Shown here in pieces: positions 326 through 47,385 of a stretch of DNA of 64,000 nucleotides (the first letter of the stretch is position 1; every line of letters starts with the position of its first letter). The DNA lies in the NCBI GenBank assembly GCA_963808235.1, contig CAWEEQ010000004.1:781084-845083 (forward strand), given 5' to 3'. Source of the stretch: an uncultured delta proteobacterium (GTDB lineage: Bacteria > Desulfobacterota > Binatia > Binatales > Binataceae). Under the pieces are notes generated by a model. It saw only the letters and a program-made list of their open reading frames with translations, did not search any database and had not been told where the DNA came from. Both the position numbers and the translations under genes were made by a program.

Positions 326-432
326 TTCCTTCTTATCCGCGCCACAAATTGCACGAATCGAGCACTTTCCGCCCTATTCGTCGCGCGGCTTGCTCGCGCG
401 CGCTCGATATGAAAATTTCTAGGGTTCCGGTG

Positions 433-508
433 CGCCCATAGCTCAGTGGATTAGAGCGGATGACTACGGATCATCAGGTCGGGGGTTCAAGTCCCTCTGG
501 GCGCACCA
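433..508 (+). tRNA. tRNA-Arg (anticodon ACG)
   Basis: Cloverleaf folded by hand: acceptor GCGCCCA/TGGGCGC, D stem GCTC/GAGC, anticodon stem GATGA/TCATC with loop CTACGGA, T stem GGGGG/CCCTC with loop TTCAAGT, discriminator A, encoded CCA; 76 nt. Confidence 0.93.
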
Positions 509-23200: not shown

Positions 23201-23277
23201 GCCCCCTTAGCTCAGATGGATAGAGCACAGGATTCCTAATCCTGGGGCCGTGGGTTCGAATCCCGCAGGGGGCACCA
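23201..23277 (+). tRNA. tRNA-Arg (anticodon CCT)
   Basis: Hand fold: acceptor GCCCCCT/AGGGGGC, D stem GCTC/GAGC, anticodon stem CAGGA/TCCTG with loop TTCCTAA, T stem GTGGG/CCCGC with loop TTCGAAT, discriminator A, encoded CCA; 77 nt. Confidence 0.92.
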
Positions 23278-32384: not shown

Positions 32385-32526
32385 TCTAAAGCGTGGCATC
32401 TTTATTTACTTTATTTTATGTCTCATTGCTTTGTTTATTCTTTTATGGTACAGTCTTACATAGCGTGCATCCCTTACGATTCATGCGTCGAATCGCGTAC
32501 TGACCTGAGCAGTGAGAAAAAAAACC

Positions 32527-33252
32527 ATGAAACGAAAACTATTGGTCATAGCTCTTCTGTGTTGTGCGCAGCTTCTGTTCGGATGCTCCGCGAAGGACCC
32601 GGAGGCTACCGATATCAAGGGTGTGTCGATGGCGCCGGTGTCGCCTGCCTGCCAATTCACTTCGGTCGACGACCAGTTTCGATCATACCGGATTCAGCCG
32701 GGCGACCAGCTCGACATCAGTTTTTATATGAGCCCCGAGTTTGACCAGGACCTGACCGTACGACCCGACGGCGACATCTCGATGCCGGTGGTCGGCAATA
32801 TTCACGTGCAGGGACTAACCCCGGTCGGGCTCGAGAAGAATCTCAATCAGCTCTATTCGCAGGAGTTGAAAGATCCGAAGACCACGGTCCGCATCGACAA
32901 GAGTCCAAGCCAGGTCGTGTACGTCGAGGGCCAGGTTGGCAAACCCGGCGCGGTGCCGCTGCAGCCCGGGATGACCGCGATCCAGGCGATCGCCGCGTCG
33001 GGCGGAATGAACGATAACGCCGGACCGAGCCGGGTGATTCTCATAAGACGCGACGCGTGCGGGAACGCGCACGGGCAGCCTCTCAAGCTCGACAAAGTGC
33101 TGAACCAGAAAAATAACGAAGAAGATGTGGCGCTGCTGCCTTCGGACATCGTGGTCGTACCGCGCAGCGGGATTGCCCAATTCGATCTCGACGTGAAGCA
33201 GTACGTGCGCGACGCGATGCCGGTCGAAGTCTACGCCGCGCCGCCATTTTGA
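32527..33252 (+). CDS. polysaccharide export outer-membrane lipoprotein (Wza/OPX family)
   Basis: MKRKLLVIALLCCAQLLFGCS lipobox. Poly_export motif: YRIQPGDQLDISFY...VRPDGDISMPVVGNIHVQGLT. SLBB-like: VYVEGQVGKPGAVPL. Confidence 0.85.
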   Translation: MKRKLLVIALLCCAQLLFGCSAKDPEATDIKGVSMAPVSPACQFTSVDDQFRSYRIQPGDQLDISFYMSPEFDQDLTVRPDGDISMPVVGNIHVQGLTPVGLEKNLNQLYSQELKDPKTTVRIDKSPSQVVYVEGQVGKPGAVPLQPGMTAIQAIAASGGMNDNAGPSRVILIRRDACGNAHGQPLKLDKVLNQKNNEEDVALLPSDIVVVPRSGIAQFDLDVKQYVRDAMPVEVYAAPPF

Positions 33253-33262
33253 GCCGAGTGGG

Positions 33263-34786
33263 ATGAATCAGATGAACAACGAAGCTGTAATGCAGTGGAT
33301 AGAGAAGATATTCCGGCGCCGGGCGTTGGCGCTCCGGATAGGCCTGCTGGTCTTCGGCGTAATCGCGCTGGGCTCGATCATGTGGCCCCCGAGCTACGCG
33401 TCGTCGTCGAAAATCCTGGTTCAATCCAACCGCGCGCAACTGCTGGTCTCGCCCGGGCTGAAGGAAGACGCCGCCAATCAATCGACCCAAACGGTTCCGG
33501 TGGCGGAGCAGGACCTCAACTCGGAGGTCGAGCTGCTGACCAGTCCGTTCCTTATTAAGCAGGCGCTCGCGGGGATGAAGCTCAATCAACGCAAGGGCGG
33601 CGTGATCGCGGGAATGCGAAACATTGTCGACGCGGTCGTCAGCGTCCCGACAGACGTGTACACGGTGCTGCACGGAGGCCCCAGCGCGACTGCGAACCAG
33701 GACGAGATTCAGAAAATCGTGAATCATCTCAGCGCGGACGTGATCAAGCGCTCGAATGTTATCGAGGTTTCGATTGTCTCGCACGATCCCGCGTGGGCGA
33801 AAGCGTTTCTCTCGCAATTGATGACTTCATACCTGAACCTGCACGGGCAGTTGTCGCAGAATCCGCAGGCGCAGGCATTTTTCCAGCAGCAGCGCGCGCT
33901 GCTCGATCAGCGCCTCCAGGACTCAGAGAAGGAGTTGCGCGCGGCGCAACTGCAGACCGGAATCGCTCAATTCAGCGAGCAGCAGCAGGCGCTCATCAAC
34001 CAGGTGTCCGCCGCCGAGGCGAACTATCGCACCACCAGCGCCTCTCTGGATTCCAAGCTGCAGCAGATCAGGAGCCAGGAAGCCGAGTTGAAGCAGACTC
34101 CGCAGCGTCAGACCAAGGAATCGAAGTCGGTCCAGAACATGGCGCTCAGCCAGTTGAAGCCGCAGATGCTTCAACTCGAAACCGAGCGTGCCGAGTTGTT
34201 GAGCCGCTATCAGCCCACCAGCGAGAGAATCCGTGCGATCGACGCCAAGCTGAAAGCCGGCCAAATCATCCTGAGCCGCGAAGATAAGACCAACGTCCAG
34301 GAAACCACCACCGATGTGAATCCGACCTGGCAGGCGCTCGATGCCGATTTGGCCAAAGCGCGGGCCGAAGCCGCGTCGGATAAGGCGGCGCAGACCACTG
34401 AAGCGGCGCAAGTCGCAACGTTACAGAATCAGCTCAAACAGATGACCACGGATGGAGTCGAGATCGAACGCCTGCAGCGCAAAGTCGATAGCGACAAGGA
34501 AGCGTACATGTCGTACGTGCGCAAGGGCGAGGAGGCCCGCGCGGCCGAGGCTCTTAACCAAAGCCGGATCCTGAACGTGAGCGTGGTGCAGGATCCGACC
34601 ACTCCGATCGATCCGGTGTCGCCGCGAATCCGGTTGAATCTGATCGCCGGGCTCCTGTTTGCCCTGATGCTGGCGGTCGCCGCGGCGCACTGGACCGAGG
34701 AATACGATCCCAAGATTTGTTCGACCGCGTCGATATTCAAGGACACCGGGCTCAGCACGGTCGCGATCCTCGACGACAGGTTGTAG
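33263..34786 (+). CDS. polysaccharide chain-length determinant (PCP/GumC-like, no kinase domain)
   Basis: 507 aa; N-terminal TM followed by YASSSKILVQ (Wzz-type), a long Gln/Ala-rich coiled coil, and a C-terminal TM (LNLIAGLLFALMLAVAAA). Confidence 0.8.
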   Translation: MNQMNNEAVMQWIEKIFRRRALALRIGLLVFGVIALGSIMWPPSYASSSKILVQSNRAQLLVSPGLKEDAANQSTQTVPVAEQDLNSEVELLTSPFLIKQALAGMKLNQRKGGVIAGMRNIVDAVVSVPTDVYTVLHGGPSATANQDEIQKIVNHLSADVIKRSNVIEVSIVSHDPAWAKAFLSQLMTSYLNLHGQLSQNPQAQAFFQQQRALLDQRLQDSEKELRAAQLQTGIAQFSEQQQALINQVSAAEANYRTTSASLDSKLQQIRSQEAELKQTPQRQTKESKSVQNMALSQLKPQMLQLETERAELLSRYQPTSERIRAIDAKLKAGQIILSREDKTNVQETTTDVNPTWQALDADLAKARAEAASDKAAQTTEAAQVATLQNQLKQMTTDGVEIERLQRKVDSDKEAYMSYVRKGEEARAAEALNQSRILNVSVVQDPTTPIDPVSPRIRLNLIAGLLFALMLAVAAAHWTEEYDPKICSTASIFKDTGLSTVAILDDRL

Positions 34787-34791
34787 CCGAT

Positions 34792-36375
34792 ATGTATTAC
34801 GAACACTTCAGACTTAGCGGCGCTCCCTTCGAGTTCAATCCCTCGGCGTCGGTGCTCTTCATGAGCGCGGGGCATCGCGAAGGATTGGCGGCGCTCGAGT
34901 GGGGACTGTCCGAGCCGAGCGGATTCACGATGCTGGTCGGCGAGATCGGGACCGGCAAGACCACGCTCATCTACTCGCTGCTCGCGACGCGGCATCAGGG
35001 CGTCCGGACCGCGTGGGTGGCGAATCCGCGCTTAAGCTTCGAAGACATGATGCGCCAGATTTTGGGCCAGCTGGGCGCAGTTGCGCCGGAGACGTCGGGC
35101 AAGCTCGCGCTGCTGCAGGCGTTCGACGCGCAGCTCGCGAGCCATGGGCTCGAAGAGTGCGTGGCGGTGATTGTCGACGAGGCGCAGGACCTGAGCGACG
35201 ACGCGCTGGAAGATCTGCGCCTGTTGACCAACTTTCAATCGCTCGAGCGCAGACGCCTGCAAATAGTGCTGGTCGGTCAGCTCGATCTCGCCAGAAGGCT
35301 GGGGCGGCCGCAACTGCGCCAACTGAATCAGCGAATCGGTGCGCGCGCGCTGTTGCCGACTCTGCAGGACCGGGAGATTTACGACTACGTCGAATACCGG
35401 CTGCGCTCGCGCGGCGGAGATATCGAGAACCTGTTCACGCGGAGCGCGATGCGGGAGCTCGCGCGCGCGAGCGGCGGAATCCCGCGGCGGATCAACATGC
35501 TTTGCCACAACGCGATGCTGCAGGCATACGCGGACGGCGAGCAATTCGTCGCCGAAAAGCATGTGCGTGCCGCCGCCAGCGACTACGATAATTTGCTGGT
35601 CGGCAAAGATTCGGCGTCCGCGAAGATGGCCGCATCGGCGAGCGCGGCGATGCAATCCGCGAGCACAAAGATACGGTCGGCGAGCGCGTCGATGCATTCA
35701 TCGGCGGTCTCGATGGCGCCGGCGATGCGTTCGGGCGCGACCAAGGCGGTTCGCGCGTTGAGCGCGGCGGCAACATTCGGGGCGCTGAGCTTGCTCGGCG
35801 TAGCGGTAGTCGGATTTTGCGAGATGCAGCCGGTGCACAATGATCTTTCCGCGCTGGTCAGGAAATTCGAATCGAAAGCGGCGAGTTTCAGAAGGCCAAT
35901 CGTGGTGCAGCGGGCGCCGGCGCAGTTCGTGACCGGTTCGTCCCCGGCGACCGTTCCGGCGCCGAACACAATTGGTTCGGCTCCAGCGGCCGTTCATGAC
36001 AGCACCGCCCCGGGCGCCCACGAATTGAGTACGCGCGGACACCTCAGGGGTCTTTCGGCGACTGGCCGGCGGGTTCCAGTCAAGCCGCAACCTGAAGCGA
36101 GCGCCGTTCCCAATATTTTGCCGGTGACGTTGTCGCCGGTCGGAAATATTTCCGCATCTCCGGATTCTTCGACGAAACCAGATGACGGCGCCTTGCGCAC
36201 CGACTCGACCATTTTGGTCAGGGCGGGCGACTCGCTCAGCAAGATAGCGATGAGAATCTATGGTTCGTTCGGAGCCGATGAAGTTAAGCGATTGACCGCG
36301 GCGAATCCGCAAATCAAGGACGCGAACGTGATCTATCCCGGTCAGTCTATTCACGTGCAGCAAGCTACCAAATGA
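34792..36375 (+). CDS. ExeA/GspA-like AAA ATPase with TM segment and C-terminal LysM domain
   Basis: MYYEHFRLSGAPFEFNP...GFTMLVGEIGTGKTTL (Walker A), VIVDEAQ (Walker B), TM AATFGALSLLGVAVVGF, LysM ILVRAGDSLSKIAMRIYG...NPQIKDANVIYPGQSIHV. Confidence 0.8.
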   Translation: MYYEHFRLSGAPFEFNPSASVLFMSAGHREGLAALEWGLSEPSGFTMLVGEIGTGKTTLIYSLLATRHQGVRTAWVANPRLSFEDMMRQILGQLGAVAPETSGKLALLQAFDAQLASHGLEECVAVIVDEAQDLSDDALEDLRLLTNFQSLERRRLQIVLVGQLDLARRLGRPQLRQLNQRIGARALLPTLQDREIYDYVEYRLRSRGGDIENLFTRSAMRELARASGGIPRRINMLCHNAMLQAYADGEQFVAEKHVRAAASDYDNLLVGKDSASAKMAASASAAMQSASTKIRSASASMHSSAVSMAPAMRSGATKAVRALSAAATFGALSLLGVAVVGFCEMQPVHNDLSALVRKFESKAASFRRPIVVQRAPAQFVTGSSPATVPAPNTIGSAPAAVHDSTAPGAHELSTRGHLRGLSATGRRVPVKPQPEASAVPNILPVTLSPVGNISASPDSSTKPDDGALRTDSTILVRAGDSLSKIAMRIYGSFGADEVKRLTAANPQIKDANVIYPGQSIHVQQATK

Positions 36376-36393: not shown

Positions 36394-37254
36394 ATGAGTA
36401 GATACTTTCAGGCAATGGAACGCCGCAAGAACGGAATGGTTCCGTTAACTGATTCCAGGATAGGTGATGCGAGAATCGCTGATTCCAACTTCGCTGATTC
36501 GAAGGTCGTTGAGTCGAAGATCATCGATTCCAAGATCATCGAGACCAAGACCAAGCCGTTCTCACACTCACAGGCTGTAGCGCGAACTCAGCCGATGGCG
36601 CTTCCGTCTGTTTCGGAGCCGCAAGGGTTGCTCGATACGCTCGCATGCTGCCATTCGATGCGCAGCTTGAGCGAGCAGCTGGCGGCGGCGAGCGCGCACA
36701 ATGGCCCTGCGCGAATACTCATGACCGGATGCCGGCCGGGCGACGGCGTATCCACCGTGGCTGCGGCGATGGCGCTCGACATAAGTCAGCGCCTGGCGGC
36801 GCGGACAGTGCTGGTAGAAGGACAGCCGCGAGTCACGATGATGCATCCGTTCTTCGCGCGCTCTTGCGCGCCAACTCCCGCGACGATCACGAGCGCGTCG
36901 ATCGCCGTGCAAGGAACCGGATATCCGCGGCTCGAGACGGCGCGGCCGGAGCAGTTGGCGCTAGCGGACCAACCGGCACGGCTGGTGGAAGATCTGGACG
37001 AATTACTTATGCGCTATCGCCTGGCGGTTATAGATCTCGGCGTAGTGCGTTTGGACCCACGAATGTTAGCGCTGGCGCGGCCCACCGATCCGATCCTGAT
37101 TGTGGCCCGACATCTGCATACAGATCGAGCGGAAATGATCGCGACGGCAAACATCCTGCGCTCTACCGGACATCCCGTAGCTGGGGTGATTCTGAATGGA
37201 TACAAGTCGCCGTTGCCATCGCTGGTTCGCCGCCTTGTTGGAATGGAGGAATAA
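36394..37254 (+). CDS. BY-kinase/MinD-like P-loop protein with degenerate Walker motifs
   Basis: ARILMTGCRPGDGVSTVAAAMALDISQ aligns to the S..PGEGKST Walker A of CpsD/EpsG-type kinases, but the Lys is replaced by Val. The A' box DxD is replaced (VLVEGQPR). There is no C-terminal Tyr cluster. Confidence 0.6.
   Translation: MSRYFQAMERRKNGMVPLTDSRIGDARIADSNFADSKVVESKIIDSKIIETKTKPFSHSQAVARTQPMALPSVSEPQGLLDTLACCHSMRSLSEQLAAASAHNGPARILMTGCRPGDGVSTVAAAMALDISQRLAARTVLVEGQPRVTMMHPFFARSCAPTPATITSASIAVQGTGYPRLETARPEQLALADQPARLVEDLDELLMRYRLAVIDLGVVRLDPRMLALARPTDPILIVARHLHTDRAEMIATANILRSTGHPVAGVILNGYKSPLPSLVRRLVGMEE
36451..36555 (+). repeat. 7 x 15-bp in-frame tandem repeat (pentapeptide DSKII-type)
   Basis: gattccaggataggt / gatgcgagaatcgct / gattccaacttcgct / gattcgaaggtcgtt / gagtcgaagatcatc / gattccaagatcatc / gagaccaagaccaag encodes DSRIG DARIA DSNFA DSKVV ESKII DSKII ETKTK. 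Confidence 0.9.
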
Positions 37255-37257
37255 GCA

Positions 37258-38379
37258 ATGGAAGATCTTATCTCGCACAATGGTACTCTAGCCGGTTCAC
37301 ACAACGGCATTCACGCGCCATCAAGTGTGCCTACCTACTCAACTCGGCGCCAAATGCGCGGGATTGCGATTGTTGGGCTCGGCTACTGGGGGCCCAACTG
37401 GGTGAGAAATTTTTCCCAGATACAGGGAATCGACCATGTCGTGTGCTGTGACTTCAGCCGCCCGCGGCTCGATCACATCAAGGGACGTTACCCATCGGTA
37501 GTCATTACCGACCAGCTAGACCGGGTGCTCACCGATCCCGCGATCGACGCGGTCGTAGTTGCTACGCCGGTTAACACTCACTTTGAGATAGCAAGTCGAT
37601 GCCTGAAGGCAGGTAAGTCGACGCTGGTCGAGAAGCCACTGGCTACCTCATGCGACCAGGCAGAGCTTCTAATAAAGATGGCGCGCGAGCGCGATCTGAC
37701 GCTTATGGCGGGCCACACCTTCGAGTACAGCGCGCCGGTGGTGAAGATTCGCGAGCTGATCGACAGCGGCGAGCTCGGCGATATTTTCTACATCAGCTCG
37801 GTGCGCGCGAATCTCGGGCTCTTTCGCCGCGACGTCAACGTGGCCTGGGATCTGGCTACGCACGACATCTCGATCATCCTGATGCTGCTGGGCGAGATGC
37901 CGCTTGAGGTGACTTGCCAGGGCGAGAGCCACTATCACGATCACGTCGAAGACGTTGCGCTGCTCACGCTTCGCTTTGCCAACAACGTGATCGCTTTCGT
38001 GCACGTTAGCTGGCTCGATCCGAACAAGATTCGGCGCACAACTATAGTAGGTTCGCGCAAGATGCTGGTGTACGACGACACGGCGTTGCAGGAAAAAGTC
38101 CGCGTCTACGATAAGGGCGTCACCAAGCATCCTTACTACGACACTTATGGAGACTTTCAGCTTTCATATCGTTACGGCGACGTGAATATCCCGCGGATCG
38201 ACGACCCGGAGCCGCTCAAGGTGGAATGCGATCACTTTATTGAATGCATCAAGAGCGGGATTGCACCGAACAGCGACGGACTGAGCGGACTTAGAGTAGT
38301 GAAGGTGCTGGAAGCAGCCGACCGTTCGCTCAAGAGTCACGGAAGGCCGATAGCGCTTACTCCAACCAGGGTGAACTAG
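37258..38379 (+). CDS. Gfo/Idh/MocA-family sugar-nucleotide oxidoreductase (WbpB-like)
   Basis: IAIVGLGYWGPNWVRN Rossmann start, EKPLA motif, GGAGG RBS. Confidence 0.8.
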   Translation: MEDLISHNGTLAGSHNGIHAPSSVPTYSTRRQMRGIAIVGLGYWGPNWVRNFSQIQGIDHVVCCDFSRPRLDHIKGRYPSVVITDQLDRVLTDPAIDAVVVATPVNTHFEIASRCLKAGKSTLVEKPLATSCDQAELLIKMARERDLTLMAGHTFEYSAPVVKIRELIDSGELGDIFYISSVRANLGLFRRDVNVAWDLATHDISIILMLLGEMPLEVTCQGESHYHDHVEDVALLTLRFANNVIAFVHVSWLDPNKIRRTTIVGSRKMLVYDDTALQEKVRVYDKGVTKHPYYDTYGDFQLSYRYGDVNIPRIDDPEPLKVECDHFIECIKSGIAPNSDGLSGLRVVKVLEAADRSLKSHGRPIALTPTRVN

Positions 38380-38423
38380 CACACACCACTTAGATGTAGC
38401 ACTGAAAGAATGTGAGAACTGAG

Positions 38424-38924
38424 ATGTCACCGCACGAACTACCACCCAACGTATGCGCCTCGGCCGACGTGATCCTGGGCGAGGAGGTCCAATTAGCACC
38501 TTTCGTAAATCTATACGGATGCAGCGTCGGAGACGCGTCGCGAATCGGCGCCTTCGTGGAAGTTCAGCGCGACGCGCACATCGGCAAGCGCTGCAAGATA
38601 TCGAGTCACACTTTCATTTGTTCCGGCGTCACTATTGAAGATGAGGTTTTCATCGGTCACGGGGTGCTGTTCATCAACGATCGGCATCCACGCGCGACCA
38701 ACCCCGACGGCACCTCCAAGACCCCGGACGATTGGGTGATGGAGCGCACTTACGTGCGGCGCGGCGCCTCGATTGGGAGCGGTGCGATCATCATGTGCGG
38801 CGTCGAGATTGGCGCGAGATCGATGGTCGCAGCCGGTGCGCTAGTGACCAGTGACGTTCCCGCGCGAGCAACTGTCCTAGGTATACCGGCACGTCTATAT
38901 ACCGGCCAGCGCCGGTCCGCATAG
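38424..38924 (+). CDS. left-handed beta-helix N-acetyltransferase (WbpD-like)
   Basis: Hexapeptide repeats IGAFVEV...IGKRCKI...IGHGVLF...IGSGAIIMCGVEIG...; a GTG at 38412 is an alternative start. Confidence 0.78.
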   Translation: MSPHELPPNVCASADVILGEEVQLAPFVNLYGCSVGDASRIGAFVEVQRDAHIGKRCKISSHTFICSGVTIEDEVFIGHGVLFINDRHPRATNPDGTSKTPDDWVMERTYVRRGASIGSGAIIMCGVEIGARSMVAAGALVTSDVPARATVLGIPARLYTGQRRSA

Positions 38925-38941: not shown

Positions 38942-40078
38942 ATGCCAATCAAATTTTTGGACCTCGCGGCACAGAACCGCGAAATCATGCCACAAGTCGA
39001 GCGCGGCTTCGCGGAAATCCACGAGAAGACTTCGTACGTTGGAGGCCCACAGGTGGCGGCGTTCGAAGAGGAATTTGCGAACTTCCTGGGCGCCCGCCAG
39101 GTGATCAGCGTGGCGAGCGGGACCGACGCGCTAAGACTCGCGCTGCTCGCGATCGGAATCGGGCCGGGCGACGAAGTGATCACGACTCCGATGACGTTCA
39201 TCGCGACTGCCGAAGCGATCGTGCAGACCGGCGCGCGGCCCTCGTTTGTGGATATCGATCCGAACACCGGAAATATGAGTGTTCCGGAAATCTCGCGCTA
39301 CCTCGAGCGGGGACGCTTCACAGCGCCCAACGGCCCGCGCGCGATCGTCCCGGTTCATCTCTACGGAATGCCGGCGCCGATGATCGAAATGCGCGATCTC
39401 GCGCAGGCGTGCAACCTTAAACTGATCGAGGACGCATGCCAGGCGCATGGCGCGCGCATCACTCACGACGGCCAATCGCAATATGCCGGCACGATCGGCG
39501 CGGCCGGTTGCTTCAGTTTTTATCCCGGTAAGAATCTGGGCGCGTGGGGCGAAGGCGGGGCCGTGGCGACCAATGACGAGGAGCTGGCGGCGCAGATCCG
39601 TACGTTACGCGACCACGGACGCCTTTCGCACTACGCGCACAGTGCATATGGATACAATGCGCGGCTCGACACGATGCAGGCGGCGGTACTCCGTCCGAAG
39701 CTCGAGCGCCTGGCGGAGTGGAATGCACGACGCCGGCACTTCGCGGCGCTTTATCGTGAAACTCTGCCTCACGAGGTGGAGCTGCTGTCCGAGCCCGAGG
39801 GTATCGAGTCGTGCTACCACCTGTTCGTCATCCGCAGCGAGCGGCGAGACGCGATCAGAACCGCGCTGCTGCAAAACCAGATCGAGTGCGGGATCCATTA
39901 CCCGGTTCCGCTTCATCTACAGCCGGCATGCCGCGACCTCGGATATGCGCAAGGAGATTTTCCGCACGCCGAGACGATGGCTGACACCGTGCTGTCATTG
40001 CCGATGCATCCCTTTCTGACCGAGCGCGAAGTTAAGACGGTCAGCCAGGCAGTCAAGCGCGCATTAACCACAGGTTGA
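38942..40078 (+). CDS. DegT/DnrJ/EryC1/StrS-family sugar aminotransferase (WbpE-like)
   Basis: 378 aa; SGTDALRLAL, FIATAEAI, SFYPGKNLGAWGEGGAV (PLP-Lys region). Confidence 0.88.
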   Translation: MPIKFLDLAAQNREIMPQVERGFAEIHEKTSYVGGPQVAAFEEEFANFLGARQVISVASGTDALRLALLAIGIGPGDEVITTPMTFIATAEAIVQTGARPSFVDIDPNTGNMSVPEISRYLERGRFTAPNGPRAIVPVHLYGMPAPMIEMRDLAQACNLKLIEDACQAHGARITHDGQSQYAGTIGAAGCFSFYPGKNLGAWGEGGAVATNDEELAAQIRTLRDHGRLSHYAHSAYGYNARLDTMQAAVLRPKLERLAEWNARRRHFAALYRETLPHEVELLSEPEGIESCYHLFVIRSERRDAIRTALLQNQIECGIHYPVPLHLQPACRDLGYAQGDFPHAETMADTVLSLPMHPFLTEREVKTVSQAVKRALTTG

Positions 40079-40085
40079 TAATGTT

Positions 40086-41600
40086 GTGTTAGGCGGGGAA
40101 TTACAGCGTCAGAAGGCGCTACTTGCGGCCACCGACGCGCTAGCAGTCGTCGGCGCGTGTGCACTGTCGCAAGCCATCAGGAACCACGATTTATACCCCC
40201 TGGACCCAGGCAACTGGGGCGAGGCGCTGGCGGGCATGGCGATGCTGGGTGTGATCTGGATACTGGTCGCGCGCGCGGTCGGGCTGTATCGAAACGGGCG
40301 GCGGCACGAAGTCAAGTCGATCGTGAAGGCGAGTTGCGCGGCGTGGTTCACGATGGTGTCGATCAGCTTTTTCCTGCATCTGGCGCCATCGCGGCTGGTG
40401 GTAGGCATCGGACTGGCGCTGACGATTGGTTTTGTCGTAACGGCGCGGATGCTGGTCCGCCGCTGCATCAAGTTTTTTTATTCGCGCCCCGAGTTCGCGG
40501 TGCCGCTGGTCATCGTTGGGGTCAATTCGTTCGGTGTTTACCTGCGTGATCGAATCAAGGAAGAGCTCACGCAGTACGAATTCCTGGGCTTTGTAGATGA
40601 AAACCCGGTCCCGCTCGCATCCAACGGTGTGAACGGGCACAGCGGCACCAACGGACACGACGACGCGAATCGGCACAACGGGCATTCCAAAACGAACGGA
40701 CATTTTGGATCGACCGGGCTCGCCACTCCGGCGCCGGTAATCGGAAGCCTCGAACGCATCGCGAGTCTCGCAATCGTACATCCCAACCTTGAGGCGGTGA
40801 TAGTTCTTCCCGAGCGCGACCACAGCCAGGTCGAGCGTATCATTAAGCTTTGCGAGCGTTATCGAGTTCGCTGGCGGATGATGCCGCGAGTTGCGGAATC
40901 GATGGCTCTGACGGTGGAGATGGTCGGCGCGATTCCGCTGATTGGGCCTCCGGGATCGAACATCGAAGGGCTCAACTGCGTGGTAAAGCGCGGCTTCGAT
41001 GTCGTGGTGGCGAGCCTCCTGCTGCTGCTTGCGTCGCCGCTCTTGATGTTCGCGGCGATTGCGATCTGGCTCACCGACGGACATCCGTTGCTGTTTCGCC
41101 AGACCAGGGTCGGTATCCACGGCACGCCGTTCGAACTGCTGAAATTTCGCACGATGCGCACCGAGTGCTCCGACACGGTGCATCGCGAGTACGTCAAAGA
41201 ATGGATTCAGCGCAATGCGGCCGAGGGGTCGGAGCCCAACGGCGCCAAGGTTTATAAGATCGGCAGCGATCCGCGGATTACGCCGATCGGACGATGGCTG
41301 CGGCGCTTCAGCATCGACGAGCTGCCGCAACTGATCAACGTCCTTTACGGGAACATGAGTCTCATCGGACCGCGGCCCGCGATGCCGTACGAGCTCGAGC
41401 TGTACCAGGAATGGCATCGGCATCGGCTCGACGCGCCGCCGGGAATCACCGGGCTGTGGCAGGTCAGCGGACGCAATCGTCTGTCGTTCGACGAAATGGT
41501 GCAGCTCGACATCGAATATATCGAAGACTGGTCGCTCGCGGGCGACATGGGAATCCTGCTGCGGACGCTGCCCGCGATGCTGCAAGGGAATGGAATGTGA
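40086..41600 (+). CDS. polyprenyl-phosphate glycosyl-phosphotransferase (WbaP/EpsB-type priming sugar transferase)
   Basis: N-terminal TM helices and a central nucleotide-binding-like domain. C-terminal Bac_transf core: KRGFDVVVASLLLLLASPLL...LKFRTM...DPRITPIGRWLRRFSIDELPQLINVL.GNMSLIGPRP. Confidence 0.88.
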   Translation: MLGGELQRQKALLAATDALAVVGACALSQAIRNHDLYPLDPGNWGEALAGMAMLGVIWILVARAVGLYRNGRRHEVKSIVKASCAAWFTMVSISFFLHLAPSRLVVGIGLALTIGFVVTARMLVRRCIKFFYSRPEFAVPLVIVGVNSFGVYLRDRIKEELTQYEFLGFVDENPVPLASNGVNGHSGTNGHDDANRHNGHSKTNGHFGSTGLATPAPVIGSLERIASLAIVHPNLEAVIVLPERDHSQVERIIKLCERYRVRWRMMPRVAESMALTVEMVGAIPLIGPPGSNIEGLNCVVKRGFDVVVASLLLLLASPLLMFAAIAIWLTDGHPLLFRQTRVGIHGTPFELLKFRTMRTECSDTVHREYVKEWIQRNAAEGSEPNGAKVYKIGSDPRITPIGRWLRRFSIDELPQLINVLYGNMSLIGPRPAMPYELELYQEWHRHRLDAPPGITGLWQVSGRNRLSFDEMVQLDIEYIEDWSLAGDMGILLRTLPAMLQGNGM

Positions 41601-43114
41601 TGGCGGCGCCGGGTGACATCAGCTCCGTAGCGAACGTCGAGGGTTGGCATTCGCCGGCCTTCGCGCGGGGCGTGCGTGACAACGTTATTGGCGAGGTCGG
41701 TCTGCAGGCAGTGCGGATCGGCGGATTGGTGGTGCTCGCGCGCGCGCTGGCGCCTTCGGACTTCGGACTGTTCAGAGTCCTGATCACGATTAGCGCAATC
41801 ATAATGATGGTCAATGATTTGGCGATGCCCGACACGCTCGTGCAGCGCCAGGAGCTCAGCAGCGCGCACGAGAGCTCTGCGTGGTGGGCGACGATCGCGG
41901 TATCGGCGTTGAGCTGCGCGGTGATCTACCTGGTCGCACCGTTGATTGCGCAAGCGATGGCGATGCCGACGATTACGGGCGCGCTGCGCCTGCTATGCAT
42001 CCCGATTCTGCTCGAAGGCTCGGTGACCGTACCGATCGCGAGGCTCACGCGCAAATTGCAATTCCGCACCCTTGCGATCGCCGAGGTCGTTGGCGAGCTG
42101 GCGTTCCTGGGCGTTGCGATCGCGCTGCTCGTGATGGGTCATCCTAGACTGAGCCTGGTCGGTGGCCTGTGTGCGCGGATGGGCGCGCATGCACTGCTTC
42201 TCTGGTGCGCTGAGCCGTACATCCCGCGAGTAGGACCAAGCCGCAAGGCGCTGCTCGAGCTGCGAGGCTTCGCGAGTGGCGCGATGGGCGGCCAAATCTT
42301 TCACGCGATTTCCTGCAACATCGACTACCTGCTGGTGGGACGCACGCTCGGAAGTTCCGCGCTTGGGTTTTACGGGATGGCGTGGGACCTGCTTCGTTTC
42401 GTTCCCGACCGGCTCTACAAAATCGCTGGCCGCGTGACGGTTCCCGCGTTCGCCCGCATGCAACATCAGCCCGAGCAACTGCGGCGCGCCTACTTGAGCT
42501 TTCTCGATTACATGTGCCGGCTGATCGTGCCGCCGCTCGTATGTATTGCGATCGCGGCGCCCGAACTGTTGCGCCAGATTTACGGACCGCAGTGGATTGC
42601 GGCCGCGCTTCCGCTGCGCATCCTGAGCTTCGGAATAATTACTATCGGGCTACGTTCGGGAATGGGCGCGGTTTTCTATTCGCTGGGACGCCCGGTATTC
42701 GAAATGTATCTGTATGCTATCCGATTCGTGCTGATCGCAGTAGCGGTGTTGGTCTCGGCATCGAGTGGATTGCTGTGGGTCTGCGCCGCTGTCAGCGCGG
42801 TCGAGGGCGCGTGCACCGTTATCGGCCAGCTGGCCGCATGCCGCCTGCTGGACGTCGGCCTCGTAAAAGTATCGCGCGCGCTCATTTCCGGATTCACGAC
42901 TGCGGCAGGCTGCGCGGCTGCGACCGTAGGCGGCAGAATGCTGGCGAACAATCTCGGTATCGGCGGCCTGTTGGAACTGTCGATGATGGTTGCGCTTCCG
43001 GCGCTCGCGTTCCTTCTAATCGAAGCTCGCACCGTTCGCGAGATGCTCAGCAGCGCGCTCGGCTCCGTAAGCGTCGACAGTCCACTTCCCGAAACCGGCC
43101 AGGAGCGGGCCTAG
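41600..43114 (+). CDS. polysaccharide flippase (Wzx/MOP-family lipopolysaccharide biosynthesis protein)
   Basis: About 504 aa with about 12 TM helices. The ATG at 41600 overlaps the preceding TGA. The ORF track's extension to 41294 lies inside the previous gene. Confidence 0.75.
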   Translation: MAAPGDISSVANVEGWHSPAFARGVRDNVIGEVGLQAVRIGGLVVLARALAPSDFGLFRVLITISAIIMMVNDLAMPDTLVQRQELSSAHESSAWWATIAVSALSCAVIYLVAPLIAQAMAMPTITGALRLLCIPILLEGSVTVPIARLTRKLQFRTLAIAEVVGELAFLGVAIALLVMGHPRLSLVGGLCARMGAHALLLWCAEPYIPRVGPSRKALLELRGFASGAMGGQIFHAISCNIDYLLVGRTLGSSALGFYGMAWDLLRFVPDRLYKIAGRVTVPAFARMQHQPEQLRRAYLSFLDYMCRLIVPPLVCIAIAAPELLRQIYGPQWIAAALPLRILSFGIITIGLRSGMGAVFYSLGRPVFEMYLYAIRFVLIAVAVLVSASSGLLWVCAAVSAVEGACTVIGQLAACRLLDVGLVKVSRALISGFTTAAGCAAATVGGRMLANNLGIGGLLELSMMVALPALAFLLIEARTVREMLSSALGSVSVDSPLPETGQERA

Positions 43115-43115
43115 C

Positions 43116-44291
43116 ATGGCGCGAGTACTAATAATCGCGTACACGGCCTACGCGCGCGACGGACGCGTCAAGCGGCAGGCCGAAGCATTGACCAGCCGCG
43201 GCGATCGGGTTGACGCGATCTGCCTTGCCGACGGCAATGTCGCCGACACGCACGGAGTCAACGTCACCGGACTCAGGCTTCCGCGCTATCGTGGCGCAAG
43301 CAGAATTAACTACCTGCGAAGCTATATAAACTTCTTCGCCCGCGCGGCTGCGCTTGCGGTTCGACGCAGCATGAAGGAGCGCTACGATATAGTGATCGCC
43401 TGTACGATGCCCGATGCGGCAATACTAAGTGCATTACCATGTCGGTTGTTTGGATCGAAGTTAGTACTCGATGTCCACGATACCATGCCGGAGCTGTATC
43501 TCGACAAGTTTGGCGGCCGGCTGGGGCGAATCGGCGCGCGGATGCTGATGCTTCAGGAGCGCTTGAGCGCGCGACTCGCGGACCAGGTGCTGGCAGTGCA
43601 CGATTTGCACGCTGAACGCCTGCATCAATCCGGGATACCGGAACGCAAGCTGGTGGTGATTACCAACTCGCCCGATCCGCGAATTTTCCCGGTCGCGGAT
43701 TCGAATCAGCCGCGCCGAATCCGGCCGAACGATGAACCATTTTCGATCATCTGCCATGGAACAATTACCCGCAGGCTCGGGCTGGATACTGCTCTGGCGG
43801 CGTTAGCCCTGCTGCACGAGCGATTTCCTCTCATCCGGCTCAAGGTTATAGGCGCCGGCGATCATTTGAACGAGGTCAAGACTCTCAGCCGGCAACTCGG
43901 CGTCGAGTCCGCGGTCAGTTTCGAACCTCCAGTTCCGATTCAGGAACTGGCCTGCAAAATCGGCGAGGCTCACGTCGGACTGGTTCCCAACCATGCCTCG
44001 AGCGCGACGCATCTGATGCTGCCGGTCAAGCTGCTTGAATATGTGGCGGTCGGAATCCCGGTGATATGTGCTCGTTTACGAACCGTCGAGCATTACTTCG
44101 ACGAAAGATCGGTGCGTTATTTTTCTCCGAACAACGCATCGCAACTGGCGCACGCGATCGAGGATTTGTACCTCGATCCGGCGCTACGAGATAGCCTTTC
44201 GAATTCCGCGGCAAAAGTGGTTAAGAGCTTCAGCTGGCCCGTCCATAGCCAGCGCTTCTGCAATGCGGTCGATTCGCTACTCAACGTTTAG
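43116..44291 (+). CDS. glycosyltransferase family 4 (GT-B)
   Basis: 391 aa; MARVLIIAYTAYARDGRVKRQAEAL N-terminus; C-terminal E..G.P region (LLEYVAVGIPVICAR). Confidence 0.8.
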   Translation: MARVLIIAYTAYARDGRVKRQAEALTSRGDRVDAICLADGNVADTHGVNVTGLRLPRYRGASRINYLRSYINFFARAAALAVRRSMKERYDIVIACTMPDAAILSALPCRLFGSKLVLDVHDTMPELYLDKFGGRLGRIGARMLMLQERLSARLADQVLAVHDLHAERLHQSGIPERKLVVITNSPDPRIFPVADSNQPRRIRPNDEPFSIICHGTITRRLGLDTALAALALLHERFPLIRLKVIGAGDHLNEVKTLSRQLGVESAVSFEPPVPIQELACKIGEAHVGLVPNHASSATHLMLPVKLLEYVAVGIPVICARLRTVEHYFDERSVRYFSPNNASQLAHAIEDLYLDPALRDSLSNSAAKVVKSFSWPVHSQRFCNAVDSLLNV

Positions 44292-44304: not shown

Positions 44305-45120
44305 GTGCGCAGCGCAATACCATTGGTAGTAGGCTTGGGCGAAGTCGGAAGCGCCTTGTCGCAAGTGCTGAAGGGCGACGGCCGGCGCATCCTCGAGCAC
44401 GACATCGAAAGACGCGAGTTCGACGAACCGATCAGCGTGATGCATCTGTGTTTTCCATTCACCCGGCAGGATGCTTTCGAAGCTATCGCGCTTTCCTATA
44501 TCAAGCGGTTCAAGCCGGAACTGACTATCATCAACAGCACTGTAGTTCCCGGAACCAGCCGGTCGATAGCTGAAAAAGCGTCGGCGCCGGTTGCCTATAG
44601 TCCGGTGCGCGGCAAACACATCCGAATGGCGCAGGACCTGCTGAAGTACCGCAAGTTCGTCGCTGGCACCGATGATGAGACCACGAATCGAGCTGTCGAG
44701 CATTTTCGCGAAGCCGGAATGACTACTCAGTGCATTAGCAAGTTGGAGACTCTCGAGCTTGCCAAGCTCGGTGAGACTACCTACTTCGGCGTGCTGATCG
44801 CCTTCGCACAGGAGCTCAACCGTTACGCTAATCGGGTCGATGCTGACTATGTGGAAGCGCTGGACCTGTTCGAGGAAGTCGATTTTCTGCCGCCCACGAA
44901 ATACTACCCGGGCTTCATCGGCGGTCACTGTGTGATTCCAAATATACAATTGCTGCGCACGATTGCGTCGTCGCCACTGCTCGAGGCGGTCCTCGAATCC
45001 AACCGGATGCGCGCGGGCGAGTTGGCCAACGAAGCCAAGATGGCCCTCACGCCCGAACTCAAGCCGGGCGCTGCCGCCAACGGACACAAAACGGAGTCGC
45101 AGGCTCAGCTGCGTCGCTGA
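44305..45120 (+). CDS. short NAD-binding protein related to UDP-glucose/GDP-mannose dehydrogenases
   Basis: GTG start with AGGAGG 9 nt upstream; VVGLGEVG Rossmann; LELAKLGETTYFGVLIAFAQELN and GFIGGHCVIPN resemble the central domain and catalytic Cys. The C-terminal UDP-binding domain is missing. Confidence 0.45.
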   Translation: MRSAIPLVVGLGEVGSALSQVLKGDGRRILEHDIERREFDEPISVMHLCFPFTRQDAFEAIALSYIKRFKPELTIINSTVVPGTSRSIAEKASAPVAYSPVRGKHIRMAQDLLKYRKFVAGTDDETTNRAVEHFREAGMTTQCISKLETLELAKLGETTYFGVLIAFAQELNRYANRVDADYVEALDLFEEVDFLPPTKYYPGFIGGHCVIPNIQLLRTIASSPLLEAVLESNRMRAGELANEAKMALTPELKPGAAANGHKTESQAQLRR

Positions 45121-45139
45121 CGGCAGCCAAGAAGTGAAA

Positions 45140-46570: not shown

Positions 46571-46584
46571 CGGATGTGGGCGAC

Positions 46585-47385
46585 ATGAGGCAGAGGACTA
46601 ATAATCTTCCGATACTGATGTATCACGCGATCTGGTCGGGCGCGGACGGTGCGATCCCCAGGACGTCGAGCATCGAGCACGCTGTAAAGGATCGTGACTT
46701 CCGCGCGCAACTCGATGCGATCGTCAGTGGCGCGTTTCACACCATCAAGCTCGCCGACCTCGAGCATCCGGTTGATGCGCCGAAGCCGCTGTTGATCACC
46801 TTCGATGACGGCCATGAAAGCGACTTCACCATCGCCGCGCCCGAGCTCGCGCGGCGAAATCTGCACGCAATCTTTTTTGTCGTATGGTCCTACCTCGGAC
46901 AGCCCGGCTATCTGAGTCGAGAACAAGTGCTCGCGTTGCGTGAGCAAGGATTCGAAATCGGTTCGCATGGACTGACCCACGTCCCGCTCAGCAAGATAAG
47001 TCCGGCGCAAGCGTCGAACGAAATCCTCGAATCGAAGCACAGACTGGAAGACTTGCTCCAGCAGCCAATCGCAGGGCTTGCGCTTCCGTTCGGCCATTAC
47101 AACGATGCGGTGCTGAAAGCCGCGTGGGCCGCCGGCTATCGCCGGGTGATGACCTCGGACTTCAGGATTGCCAATCGGGAGCATCGGATCATGCCGCGGA
47201 TGGGACCGATGGCTGAGCATACGCTGGAGGATTTCAAGTGGATGCTCGAAGCGAGTCGTGCAGCCGCGATTCGTCATCGCACGATTGAGGCGATTGGTGA
47301 GCGGTTGAAACGCTTTATCAGCTATGGAGAGGCGCTGCTGATGCGCGCCCAGAATGGGGAGGTTCTAGCCAAGCCCGAGAAATAG
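46585..47385 (+). CDS. polysaccharide deacetylase (NodB homology domain)
   Basis: LPILMYHAI, ITFDDGHESD, GFEIGSHGLTH motifs. Confidence 0.82.
   Translation: MRQRTNNLPILMYHAIWSGADGAIPRTSSIEHAVKDRDFRAQLDAIVSGAFHTIKLADLEHPVDAPKPLLITFDDGHESDFTIAAPELARRNLHAIFFVVWSYLGQPGYLSREQVLALREQGFEIGSHGLTHVPLSKISPAQASNEILESKHRLEDLLQQPIAGLALPFGHYNDAVLKAAWAAGYRRVMTSDFRIANREHRIMPRMGPMAEHTLEDFKWMLEASRAAAIRHRTIEAIGERLKRFISYGEALLMRAQNGEVLAKPEK

What the first reader, a model, noticed from the sequence alone, without database searches (positions are those of the whole stretch)
36451..36555. Seven in-frame 15-bp tandem repeats (DSKII-type pentapeptides) at the N-terminus of the kinase-like protein
Reading directly from the sequence, seven consecutive 15-nt units encode DSRIG-DARIA-DSNFA-DSKVV-ESKII-DSKII-ETKTK. 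The units alternate an acidic/Ser head with a hydrophobic pair. I do not recognise this pentapeptide array from described BY-kinases. Tandem repeats of this size are prone to slippage, so copy number may vary between strains. The array could form an extended beta or amphipathic interaction surface toward the PCP or ATPase.
Basis: seen in the sequence. Interest (0 to 1): 0.5.

Follow-up and report, generated by a model that had tools for sequence, protein, structure and literature searches.

The report
Variable pentapeptide repeat in pseudokinase linker
A real seven-copy 15-base repeat lengthens a probably floppy tether at the front of an inactive kinase-like scaffold protein of a polysaccharide-export gene cluster; its copy number (1 to 9) shifts quickly between close relatives, so it looks like a length-variable spacer, not a folded surface.

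Summary
Window 36451-36555 holds seven in-frame 15-nt units (residues 20-54 of ORF 36394-37254). The period-15 signal is unique in the 64 kb window.

The host protein has a BY-kinase fold but lacks the Walker A lysine (GCRPGDG-V-ST), the Walker A' aspartates and a C-terminal tyrosine cluster. This holds across its whole small family, seen here mostly in Binatia MAGs. It is therefore best read as a stand-alone BY pseudokinase of the EcpK/HfsB kind. It sits in a conserved OPX-PCP-ATPase/LysM-pseudokinase module of a Wzx/Wzy-type polysaccharide locus.

The array lies in a segment (residues 13-69) that AlphaFold2 leaves unstructured. That segment joins a conserved N-terminal helix (MSRYFQAMERRK) to the core. 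Most orthologues carry one unit (DSRTK). One clade carries 2, 3, 4, 5, 7 or 9. Proteins with 96-98% identical cores differ by one to three units.

The unit consensus is D-S-[RK]-x-hydrophobic, and the first three positions are kept despite synonymous codon turnover. Each unit is charge-neutral.

Most likely this is a duplication-generated, length-polymorphic disordered tether, possibly repeating a short linear motif. It is not a beta or amphipathic domain. Interest is modest.

The parts
36451..36555 (+). Array of seven in-frame 15-nt units encoding DSRIG DARIA DSNFA DSKVV ESKII DSKII ETKTK (residues 20-54)
   Evidence: Read directly from the sequence. Lag-15 matches are 65/90 against 25.4 +/- 4.7 window-wide. 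TRF and the repeat finder both give period 15.
36496..36540 (+). Most homogeneous sub-array (DSKVV ESKII DSKII); probably the part most recently active in duplication or loss
   Evidence: Adjacent unit identity is 11 and 13 of 15. The two-unit (30-nt) difference from the 9-unit orthologue L002 aligns at or next to this run.
36394..37254 (+). Gene for a 286-aa stand-alone BY-kinase-fold protein that lacks the catalytic motifs (BY pseudokinase)
   Evidence: ORF. PDB profile hits to CapB, VpsO, Wzc, Etk and BceF at E 1e-11 to 1e-5. Foldseek top hits 4jmp, 3bfv, 7nhr, 6z0p and 3la6 at probability 1.0. NCBIfam BY-kinase models match far below their cut-offs.
36400..36426 (+). Conserved N-terminal helix (residues 3-11 of MSRYFQAMERRK)
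   Evidence: Helix 3-11 in the AlphaFold2 model. The motif MS[RK][YF][FY][QE]A[ML]xR recurs across most of the family. Hydrophobic moment 0.81.
36430..36600 (+). Predicted disordered tether (residues 13-69) that contains the array
   Evidence: pLDDT is below 50 with no secondary structure, for residues 13-38 and 40-69. The array has a charged-residue fraction of 0.40 and net charge 0. This is the most variable, gap-rich part of the family alignment.
36727..36756 (+). Degenerate P-loop GCRPGDGVST (residues 112-121); Val119 sits where the Walker A lysine should be
   Evidence: Aligned to PGAGKST of CapB and PGEGKTT of VpsO. C113 and G118 are invariant and D117 nearly so in 107 family sequences, and none has the Lys.
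33263..34786 (+). Polysaccharide co-polymerase (PCP-2 type, no kinase domain); probable membrane partner of the pseudokinase
   Evidence: Matches TIGR03007, TIGR01005 and Pfam GNVR. By eye it ends about 30 residues after its last hydrophobic segment. It is adjacent or near-adjacent to the pseudokinase gene in nearly all related loci that reach far enough upstream.
34792..36375 (+). AAA_22 ATPase with Ser/Ala-rich linker and C-terminal LysM domain, encoded between the PCP and the pseudokinase
   Evidence: TIGR03015 at 208 bits (below the 324.5 cut-off); Pfam AAA_22 and LysM. Present at this position in most related loci and absent in about six.
32512..33252 (+). Outer-membrane polysaccharide export (OPX/Wza-like) protein; first gene of the conserved module
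   Evidence: Matches TIGR03027, Poly_export and SLBB. Synteny shown.

Best explanation
The array is a lineage-specific expansion of one ancestral pentapeptide unit (DSRTK, in the context VPY-A-DSRTK-PL). It most likely arose by replication slippage or unequal recombination.

**Where it sits.** It lies inside the probably disordered N-terminal tether of a stand-alone BY pseudokinase. This protein has a BY-kinase fold but lacks the Walker A Lys, the Walker A' Asp residues and the Tyr tail. By analogy with EcpK and HfsB, it is inferred to act as a non-catalytic scaffold under the cytoplasmic face of its PCP partner in a Wzx/Wzy polysaccharide pathway.

**What the tether does.** The tether joins a conserved N-terminal helix to the core. 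Each added unit contributes one acidic and one basic residue, so net charge stays at zero. The array therefore lengthens a flexible polyampholyte spacer: the N-terminal region before the P-loop is 111 aa here against a family median of 82. No domain is added.

**How it evolves.** Copy number drifts quickly between close relatives. Selection keeps the acidic-Ser-basic character of each unit.

**Shown:**
- the repeat, its frame and its copy-number variation
- the position-specific conservation within units
- the BY-kinase fold and the missing catalytic motifs
- the conserved synteny

**Inferred:**
- disorder of the tether
- the slippage mechanism
- the spacer role
- the scaffold role of the protein
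For: **Copy number**
- Among distinct orthologue sequences, about 59 have 1 unit, 6 have 2, 6 have 3, 2 have 4, 4-5 have 5, one has 7 (the window) and one has 9 (L002).
- All expanded arrays fall in one clade of the core-domain tree, with one-unit members interspersed.
- Within 90%-identity clusters, copy numbers of 1-5 coexist:
  - P0009 (5 units) against P0294 (4 units): 98.2% core identity.
  - P0007 (5 units) against P0275 (2 units): 96.0% core identity.
  - P0294 and P0300 have 100% identical cores but differ by a 3-residue insertion in the array.
- The window and L002 are 85.5% identical in DNA and syntenic. They differ by a clean 30-nt (two-unit) indel in the most homogeneous part of the array.

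**Independent expansion or homogenisation**
- Each lineage has its own unit flavour: xP, xS or II.

**Unit composition**
- Across 48 inner units the counts are D43/E5, S39 and R37/K8, then a variable position, then a hydrophobic residue in 77%.
- The conserved positions use four Ser codons and five Arg codons plus Lys. The amino acids, not the DNA, are being kept.
- Charged-residue fraction is 0.40-0.47 and net charge about 0.

**Structure**
- AlphaFold2 with a 107-sequence alignment gives core pLDDT of about 90, but below 50 with no secondary structure for residues 13-69.
- No Pfam match to the N-terminal region even at E<=10.

**Pseudokinase identity and context**
- Fold, motifs and family membership.
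- Conserved OPX-PCP-ATPase-pseudokinase-GFO module.
- EcpK and HfsB precedent for scaffold BY pseudokinases with an unstructured N-terminus and a basic C-terminal helix: PMC12004946.
Against: - The disorder call is weak. The array columns are mostly gaps in the alignment given to AlphaFold2, so low pLDDT there is partly expected. A clade-only alignment gave a failed model.
- The conservation of D-S-[RK] argues that units are not mere spacer filler. The window's ESKII/DSKII units are more hydrophobic than those of other lineages.
- No population data exist for the window's own species. L001 is probably the same genome.
- DNA identity between adjacent units is only 67-87%, so present-day slippage should be slow in this particular array.
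- The scaffold role of the protein rests on analogy only. Residual nucleotide binding by GCRPGDGVST cannot be excluded.
Confidence: 0.65

Rival explanations
1. Multivalent short linear motif. The hydrophobic-Asp-Ser-Arg/Lys unit is a docking or Ser-modification site for a partner, such as the PCP tail, the LysM ATPase or a Ser kinase. Reiterating it raises avidity, so copy number tunes assembly of the export machine.
For: - Conservation is position-specific. Acidic, Ser and basic positions are kept in 81-100% of 48 inner units, despite synonymous codon turnover, while position 4 is free.
- The single ancestral unit Y-x-D-S-R-T-K-P is itself conserved across about 60 one-unit orthologues.
- In 985 kb of related DNA read in six frames, runs of 3 or more such units occur only in this gene.
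Against: - Most orthologues work with one unit.
- Family members at about 45% identity lack the motif altogether and carry a different sequence there, such as ISTEVLPP.
- No partner or modification is known.
- No complex could be modelled with these tools.
- Keeping alternating charge and polarity is also what selection for a soluble, expanded linker would produce.
Confidence: 0.2
2. Folded repeat domain. The pentapeptides stack into a beta-solenoid like the pentapeptide-repeat proteins, or into an amphipathic beta or helical surface that contacts the PCP or the ATPase.
For: - The period is five residues, with a hydrophobic residue at position 5 in 77% of units.
- The window's ESKII/DSKII units have high beta propensity by composition.
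Against: - No Pfam Pentapeptide match, or any other match, even at E<=10.
- The central residue of the unit is Ser or a basic residue, not the Leu/Phe of the A(D/N)LXX consensus (consensus cited from general knowledge).
- Seven units would give under two turns of a four-units-per-turn solenoid, and orthologues have only 1-5 units.
- Pro is at position 4 in 10 of 48 inner units.
- AlphaFold2 predicts no structure.
- The hydrophobic moment of the array is low at helical and strand angles: 0.20 at 100 degrees and 0.29 at 180 degrees.
Confidence: 0.05
3. Contingency locus. The repeat is a fast on/off or antigenic switch of the kind driven by simple-sequence repeats in pathogens.
For: Copy number changes faster than point substitutions in the core.
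Against: - Units are 15 nt, so every whole-unit change stays in frame and cannot switch expression off.
- Units are only 67-87% identical.
- The protein is predicted to be cytoplasmic. It has no signal peptide or transmembrane segment evident in the sequence and a BY-kinase core, so antigenic selection is implausible.
Confidence: 0.03
4. Purely neutral low-complexity expansion with no effect on function.
For: - The array is absent from most orthologues and all distant relatives.
- Other family members also show sporadic two-copy duplications in the same linker: QEPDE x2, QQAFP x2 and VPAEPRI x2.
Against: - Under neutrality all five unit positions should decay alike, yet positions 1-3 are kept and positions 4-5 are not.
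- Arrays persist with diverged DNA, which indicates retention over time.
Confidence: 0.07

Closest known systems
EcpK of Myxococcus xanthus and HfsB of Caulobacter crescentus (stand-alone BY pseudokinases; PMC12004946)
   Same: - Small stand-alone protein with a BY-kinase fold.
- No consensus Walker A and A' motifs, Walker B only partly kept, and no Tyr-rich tail.
- Unstructured N-terminal region.
- Short C-terminal helix bearing Arg residues (here SLVRRL, residues 276-281).
- Paired with a PCP-2 that lacks a kinase domain and ends in a cytoplasmic tail of about 25-30 residues.
- Part of a Wzx/Wzy pathway with an OPX protein.
   Different: - Sequence orthology to EcpK or HfsB was not tested.
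- The Binatia family keeps a distinctive invariant GC-x-P-G-D-G-[AV]-S-T loop and a conserved N-terminal helix.
- An AAA_22/LysM ATPase gene usually lies between the PCP gene and the pseudokinase gene.
- No tandem pentapeptide array is reported for EcpK or HfsB in that paper.
Canonical BY-kinases (Wzc, Etk, CapB, VpsO, BceF)
   Same: - Same fold. These are the best sequence-profile and Foldseek matches.
- Same genomic partnership with PCP and OPX genes.
   Different: - The Walker A Lys is replaced by Val119.
- Walker A' DxDxR is replaced by E-G-Q-P-R.
- Walker B DTPP is replaced by DLGV.
- No C-terminal Tyr cluster: only 4 Tyr in 286 residues, and the last 30 residues hold one.
- NCBIfam scores are 17-25 bits against cut-offs of 108-412.
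Amino-acid tandem repeats that create disordered regions (for example Borg aaTRs, PMC9879509; the tandem repeat-disorder association, PMC7230257)
   Same: - In-frame short tandem repeats that arise independently in related genes and evolve fast.
- They encode hydrophilic stretches predicted to be disordered.
- The repeats are shaped at the amino-acid level, not only at the DNA level.
   Different: - Borg repeats are perfect, recent and genome-wide. Here there is one degenerate array in one chromosomal gene family of a bacterium.
- The host protein is cytoplasmic, not extracellular or membrane-bound.
Pentapeptide-repeat proteins (Pfam PF00805; Qnr and MfpA type)
   Same: Five-residue period with an acidic residue near the start of the unit.
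   Different: - No profile match.
- A different consensus.
- Too few and too variable copies.
- No predicted beta-helix.

Membership tests
BY-kinase (bacterial tyrosine kinase: Wzc/Etk/CapB) | P-loop BY-kinase fold | tested here: met
   The family profile hits CapB, VpsO, Wzc, Etk and BceF in the PDB at E 1.2e-11 to 1.6e-5. Foldseek on the AlphaFold2 model returns the same proteins at probability 1.0, with TM-score 0.55-0.70 normalised on the target for the kinase-domain-only entries.
BY-kinase (bacterial tyrosine kinase: Wzc/Etk/CapB) | Walker A GxxxxGK[ST] with catalytic Lys | tested here: not met
   GCRPGDG-V119-ST aligns to PGAG-K-ST of CapB. No Lys at this position in any of the 107 aligned family sequences or in the family representatives.
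BY-kinase (bacterial tyrosine kinase: Wzc/Etk/CapB) | Walker A' (hydrophobic run, then DxDxR) | tested here: not met
   The window has LVEGQPR where CapB has VIDGDMR. Both Asp residues are replaced and only the Arg is kept.
BY-kinase (bacterial tyrosine kinase: Wzc/Etk/CapB) | Walker B (hydrophobic run, then DTPP) | tested here: inconclusive
   AVIDLGVV: Asp214 is invariant but the TPP is replaced by LGV.
BY-kinase (bacterial tyrosine kinase: Wzc/Etk/CapB) | C-terminal tyrosine cluster (autophosphorylation sites) | tested here: not met
   Tyr occurs only at residues 4, 177, 208 and 270. The last 30 residues are STGHPVAGVILNGYKSPLPSLVRRLVGMEE.
BY-kinase (bacterial tyrosine kinase: Wzc/Etk/CapB) | Reaches curated family score (TIGR01007, TIGR03018, TIGR03029) | tested here: not met
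   24.1 bits against a cut-off of 108; 16.8 against 230.65; 22.2 against 313.8.
BY pseudokinase (EcpK/HfsB type) | BY-kinase fold combined with absence of catalytic motifs and of the Tyr tail | tested here: met
   The definition is taken from PMC12004946.
BY pseudokinase (EcpK/HfsB type) | Stand-alone protein paired with a PCP-2 that lacks a kinase domain and has a short cytoplasmic C-terminal tail, in a Wzx/Wzy locus with an OPX protein | tested here: met
   - The PCP at 33263-34786 has a GNVR domain, no kinase domain and, by eye, a tail of about 30 residues.
- OPX, flippase, a Wzy-like protein and a phosphoglycosyl transferase are in the window.
- The module is conserved in nearly all related loci that reach far enough upstream.
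BY pseudokinase (EcpK/HfsB type) | Direct binding to the PCP and requirement for polysaccharide synthesis | not testable with these tools
   This needs two-hybrid or genetic experiments, or multimer modelling.
BY pseudokinase (EcpK/HfsB type) | Sequence orthology to EcpK or HfsB | not tested
The family has only 49 representatives at E<1e-30, and the named relatives retrieved are almost all Binatia MAGs. It is therefore probably a separate lineage.
Pentapeptide-repeat family (PF00805) | Profile match, A(D/N)LXX consensus and a quadrilateral beta-helix of many units | tested here: not met
   No Pfam hit for the whole protein at E<=0.01, or for the N-terminal 84-92 residues at E<=10. The unit is D-S-[RK]-x-hydrophobic. 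Orthologues have 1-9 units. AlphaFold2 shows no structure.
Simple-sequence contingency locus (phase variation) | Near-perfect repeats whose copy changes shift the frame or promoter spacing | tested here: not met
   Units are 15 nt and in frame, and 67-87% identical. All observed length variants are in frame.
XrtA/PEP-CTERM-associated EPS system | Equivalog-level matches to the pepcterm proteins, plus an exosortase | tested here: not met
   The OPX, PCP, ATPase and kinase models all score below their cut-offs. No exosortase was found among the downstream ORFs scanned. The upstream ORFs of the window were not scanned.

The most novel reading that the evidence does not exclude
The reiterated hydrophobic-Asp-Ser-Arg/Lys unit is a functional, multivalent docking or Ser-modification motif. 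Its copy number (1-9) sets how strongly or how far the N-terminal helix of the pseudokinase is coupled to the PCP/ATPase machine. Fast copy-number change would then give Binatia strains a heritable 'dial' on exopolysaccharide chain length or output. That would be a repeat-length-tuned scaffold in a phosphorylation-independent PCP system.
Probability: 0.12. Interest if true: 0.55.

Novelty: new variant of a known kind. Interest (0 to 1): 0.3.

Why it matters
**Why the topic is relevant**
- BY pseudokinases were recognised only recently as scaffolds that drive PCP function without phosphorylation.
- How their unstructured N-termini contribute is unknown.

**What this case offers**
- A natural series of alleles with 1 to 9 units, on nearly identical cores.
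- These alleles could be used to ask whether tether length or motif valency matters for assembly of the export machine.

**What else it records**
- Binatia carry a conserved OPX-PCP-ATPase/LysM-pseudokinase module.
- The module's pseudokinase has a distinctive lysine-less GCxPGDG loop.

**Limits**
- If the array is only a drifting spacer, which is the more likely case, the finding is an ordinary example of tandem-repeat-generated disorder.
- In that case its value is mainly for annotation: the gene should not be called a tyrosine kinase or an 'Mrp family ATPase'.

Tried and rejected
1. **Pentapeptide-repeat fold.** No Pfam hit even at E<=10 on the isolated N-terminal regions of the 7-unit and 9-unit proteins. 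Rejected.
2. **Search for the same array in other proteins.**
   - A 42-aa query found no candidate, not even the protein itself, so that search is uninformative.
   - A regex scan of 985 kb of related loci in six frames found such arrays only in this gene.
3. **Second AlphaFold2 run.** The 15-sequence clade-only alignment (A2) was meant to give the array columns more weight. The whole model failed (mean pLDDT 35.5), so it says nothing about the array.
4. **Independent confirmation from L001.** The contig is 100% identical over 2,590 bp and probably comes from the same sample or genome. It is not an independent strain.
5. **RNA element at the site.** Rfam at gathering thresholds finds only two tRNAs elsewhere in the window, and there is no inverted repeat in the array. 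Rejected.
6. **XrtA/PEP-CTERM membership of the locus.** All matches are below cut-off and no exosortase was seen in the ORFs scanned. The locus is not filed there.
7. **Literature on Binatota exopolysaccharide loci.** Nothing relevant was found.
Full report
**1. The observation**

ORF 36394-37254 (+) encodes a 286-aa protein. Its residues 20-54 read DSRIG-DARIA-DSNFA-DSKVV-ESKII-DSKII-ETKTK.

- Adjacent units share 10, 10, 11, 11, 13 and 10 of 15 bases, so the repeat is degenerate.
- Tandem Repeats Finder reports only two short period-15 sub-arrays.
- The repeat finder recovers four copies at 15-nt spacing.
- Lag-15 self-identity over the 105 nt is 65/90. The mean over all 105-nt segments of the window is 25.4 (sd 4.7).
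- Only segments at this locus approach that value, and neighbouring lags are at background.

The start codon has two supports. An AGGTG lies 6 nt upstream. The peptide MSRYFQAMERRK is conserved across the orthologues retrieved.

A Logan contig (L001) is 100% identical over 2,590 bp. It probably derives from the same sample as the window. It argues weakly against an assembly artefact and is not an independent strain.

**2. The host protein**

NCBIfam gives only weak hits to BY-kinase models: 17-25 bits against cut-offs of 108-412. Pfam gives nothing above threshold.

The fold is nevertheless clear.
- A profile of 107 family members hits CapB, VpsO, Wzc, Etk and BceF in the PDB, at E 1e-11 to 1e-5.
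- The AlphaFold2 model has a core pLDDT of about 90. Foldseek returns the same proteins at probability 1.0.

The catalytic signature is missing.
- The Walker A lysine position is Val119, within GCRPGDG-V-ST. It is Ala, Val or Thr throughout the family.
- Walker A' DxDxR is replaced by E-G-Q-P-R.
- Walker B DTPP is replaced by DLGV.
- There is no C-terminal tyrosine cluster.

An exhaustive profile search found only 49 representatives at E<1e-30. Scores then drop to canonical, lysine-bearing Wzc-like proteins.

The named genome hits are almost all Binatia MAGs: Candidatus Binatus, Binataceae, and bins labelled 'uncultured delta proteobacterium'.

This matches the definition of a BY pseudokinase given for EcpK of Myxococcus and HfsB of Caulobacter. 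Those are stand-alone proteins with a BY-kinase fold, no catalytic motifs and no Tyr tail. They also have an unstructured N-terminus and a basic C-terminal helix, and they bind the short cytoplasmic tail of a kinase-less PCP-2 (PMC12004946).

**3. Genomic context**

The gene lies in a Wzx/Wzy-type polysaccharide cluster:

| Coordinates | Gene product |
|---|---|
| 32512-33252 | OPX |
| 33263-34786 | PCP |
| 34792-36375 | AAA_22 ATPase with LysM |
| 36394-37254 | pseudokinase |
| 37258-38379 | GFO-type oxidoreductase |
| 38412-38924 | probable acetyltransferase ORF (not scanned here; its L002 counterpart has weak hexapeptide-repeat hits) |
| 38942-40078 | DegT aminotransferase |
| 40086-41600 | phosphoglycosyl transferase |
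| within 41294-43114 | flippase |
| 43116-44291 | GT4 glycosyltransferase |
| 44963-46570 | Wzy/O-antigen-ligase-like protein |
| 46459-47385 | deacetylase |

- The order OPX-PCP-ATPase-pseudokinase-GFO recurs in nearly all 99 related loci that reach far enough upstream.
- About six loci lack the ATPase.
- Several genomes carry two paralogous copies of the module.
- All matches to the XrtA/PEP-CTERM equivalog models are below cut-off, and no exosortase was seen. I therefore do not file the locus there.

**4. The array in its protein context**

- AlphaFold2 predicts a helix at residues 3-11.
- It predicts no structure, with pLDDT below 50, for residues 13-38 and 40-69. The core then begins at residue 79.
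- The array (residues 20-54) therefore sits in a tether between a conserved N-terminal helix and the core.
- Caveat: the array columns are mostly gaps in the alignment, so low confidence there is partly built in. A clade-only alignment gave a failed model.

Independent support for disorder:
- The charged-residue fraction is 0.40-0.47 and the net charge is about 0.
- Pro occupies position 4 in many orthologous units.
- The segment tolerates large length changes.

**5. Comparison across orthologues**

- Most relatives at 60% identity or more have one unit, in the context VPY-A-DSRTK-PL.
- One clade has 2, 3, 4, 5, 7 (the window) or 9 units (L002). One-unit members are interspersed in this clade.
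- Relatives at about 45% identity have an unrelated sequence of similar length at this place.
- The N-terminal region up to the P-loop has a family median of 82 aa. It is 111 aa in the window and 119 aa in L002.

Copy number changes fast.
- Within 90%-identity clusters, 1 to 5 units coexist.
- P0009 (5 units) and P0294 (4 units) have 98.2% identical cores.
- P0007 (5 units) and P0275 (2 units) have 96.0% identical cores.
- P0294 and P0300 have identical cores but differ by 3 residues in the array.

The window and its nearest relative L002 are 85.5% identical in DNA and syntenic. They differ by a 30-nt block in the most homogeneous part of the array.

Each lineage has its own unit flavour: DSRP[VI], DSRS[VI] or [DE]SKII. 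This points to independent expansion or to homogenisation within lineages.

**6. Is the array neutral filler?**

- Across 48 inner units the first position is D or E in all. The second is S in 39, and the third is R or K in 45.
- The fourth position is free. The fifth is hydrophobic in 77%.
- At the DNA level the conserved positions use four Ser codons, five Arg codons and two Lys codons.
- The amino-acid pattern is therefore kept while the DNA drifts. That is not what neutral decay predicts.
- The pattern fits selection for a soluble, well-mixed polyampholyte linker. It also fits a reiterated short linear motif. The present data cannot separate the two.

**7. Mechanism**

Best-supported reading (confidence 0.65): repeated duplication and loss of a 15-nt unit, by slippage or unequal recombination, produces a length-polymorphic, charge-neutral, disordered tether. 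This tether lies between the N-terminal helix and the pseudokinase core. The protein itself acts as a non-catalytic scaffold for the PCP.

| Rival | Confidence | Main point |
|---|---|---|
| Multivalent docking or modification motif | 0.20 | Fits the position-specific conservation, but no partner is known |
| Purely neutral expansion | 0.07 | Contradicted by conservation of positions 1-3 only |
| Folded pentapeptide or amphipathic domain | 0.05 | Contradicted |
| Contingency switch | 0.03 | Contradicted by in-frame, imperfect units and a cytoplasmic location |

**8. Verdict**

Copy-number variation holds. The folded interaction surface and the kinase activity do not.
- The array is a new variant of a known phenomenon: tandem repeats creating variable disordered regions. 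It sits in a new, largely Binatia lineage of a recently defined protein class, the BY pseudokinases.
- No paper searched here describes such an array, but only three literature searches were run, two of them on BY pseudokinases and Binatota polysaccharide loci.
- Interest is modest (0.3). The most novel reading still open is a copy-number 'dial' on a phosphorylation-independent export scaffold, at about 12% probability.

Noticed in passing
window 36727-36756, and all family members (alignments A1 and A3): The whole family replaces the Walker A motif by a strongly conserved G-C-x-P-G-D-G-[AVT]-S-[ST] loop. Cys113 and Gly118 are invariant and Asp117 nearly so in 107 sequences. Such strict conservation of a 'dead' P-loop suggests that it binds something, and has not simply decayed.
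   Followed up: partly
window 35583-36372 (ATPase residues 264-527), including the period-21 repeat at 35634-35696: The AAA_22 ATPase has a long Ser/Ala-rich low-complexity linker (SASAAMQSASTKIRSASASMHSS...) before its LysM domain. TRF reports three copies of a 21-nt unit there. Among close orthologues this tail is 36-67% identical, against about 72-93% for the ATPase domain. It is a second fast-evolving linker in the same module.
   Followed up: partly
loci L003-L069 (for example L003 with L056, L004 with L057, L006 with L063, L010 with L064): Several Binatia MAGs carry two paralogous copies of the OPX-PCP-ATPase-pseudokinase-GFO module, about 42% identical in the pseudokinase. About six loci (L018, L026, L040, L047, L050, L055) lack the ATPase between the PCP and the pseudokinase.
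   Followed up: partly
proteins P0121 and P0158 (family members outside the DSR clade): Other family members show two-copy duplications in the same N-terminal linker: QEPDE x2 and QQAFP x2 in P0121, and [NG]VPAEPRI x2 in P0158. The linker is therefore a recurrent site of small tandem duplications, but arrays of three or more units were seen only in the DSR clade.
   Followed up: partly
proteins P0071-P0094 and loci L014-L018 (about 45% identity clade): At the linker position where the window's clade has DSRTK, this clade has a different conserved stretch, [SN]-[IV]-S-T-E-[VI]-L-P-P. This may be another short linear motif at the same place.
   Followed up: no
L013 6001-7890: The pseudokinase ORF reads through as 629 aa and appears fused to the downstream GFO oxidoreductase. 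The pseudokinase core match stops early, at 6495. This is probably a frameshift or assembly error, not a real fusion.
   Followed up: no
window 40086-41600 and 41294-43114: The flippase ORF as listed overlaps the phosphoglycosyl transferase gene by about 300 nt. Family matches to the flippase begin at residue 131-146, so its true start is probably near 41600-41700.
   Followed up: no
window 432-505 and 23201-23274: Two tRNA genes. These are the only Rfam matches in the window at gathering threshold.
   Followed up: no
cluster members P0268, P0274 and P0040: Near-identical proteins on short MAG contigs are labelled Methylomirabilota, Sporolactobacillaceae and Candidatus Limnocylindrales. All long contigs point to Binatia, so these labels are likely binning errors. 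JGI annotates the family as 'Mrp family chromosome partitioning ATPase' or 'receptor protein-tyrosine kinase'. Given the missing lysine and tyrosines, both names are misleading.
   Followed up: no
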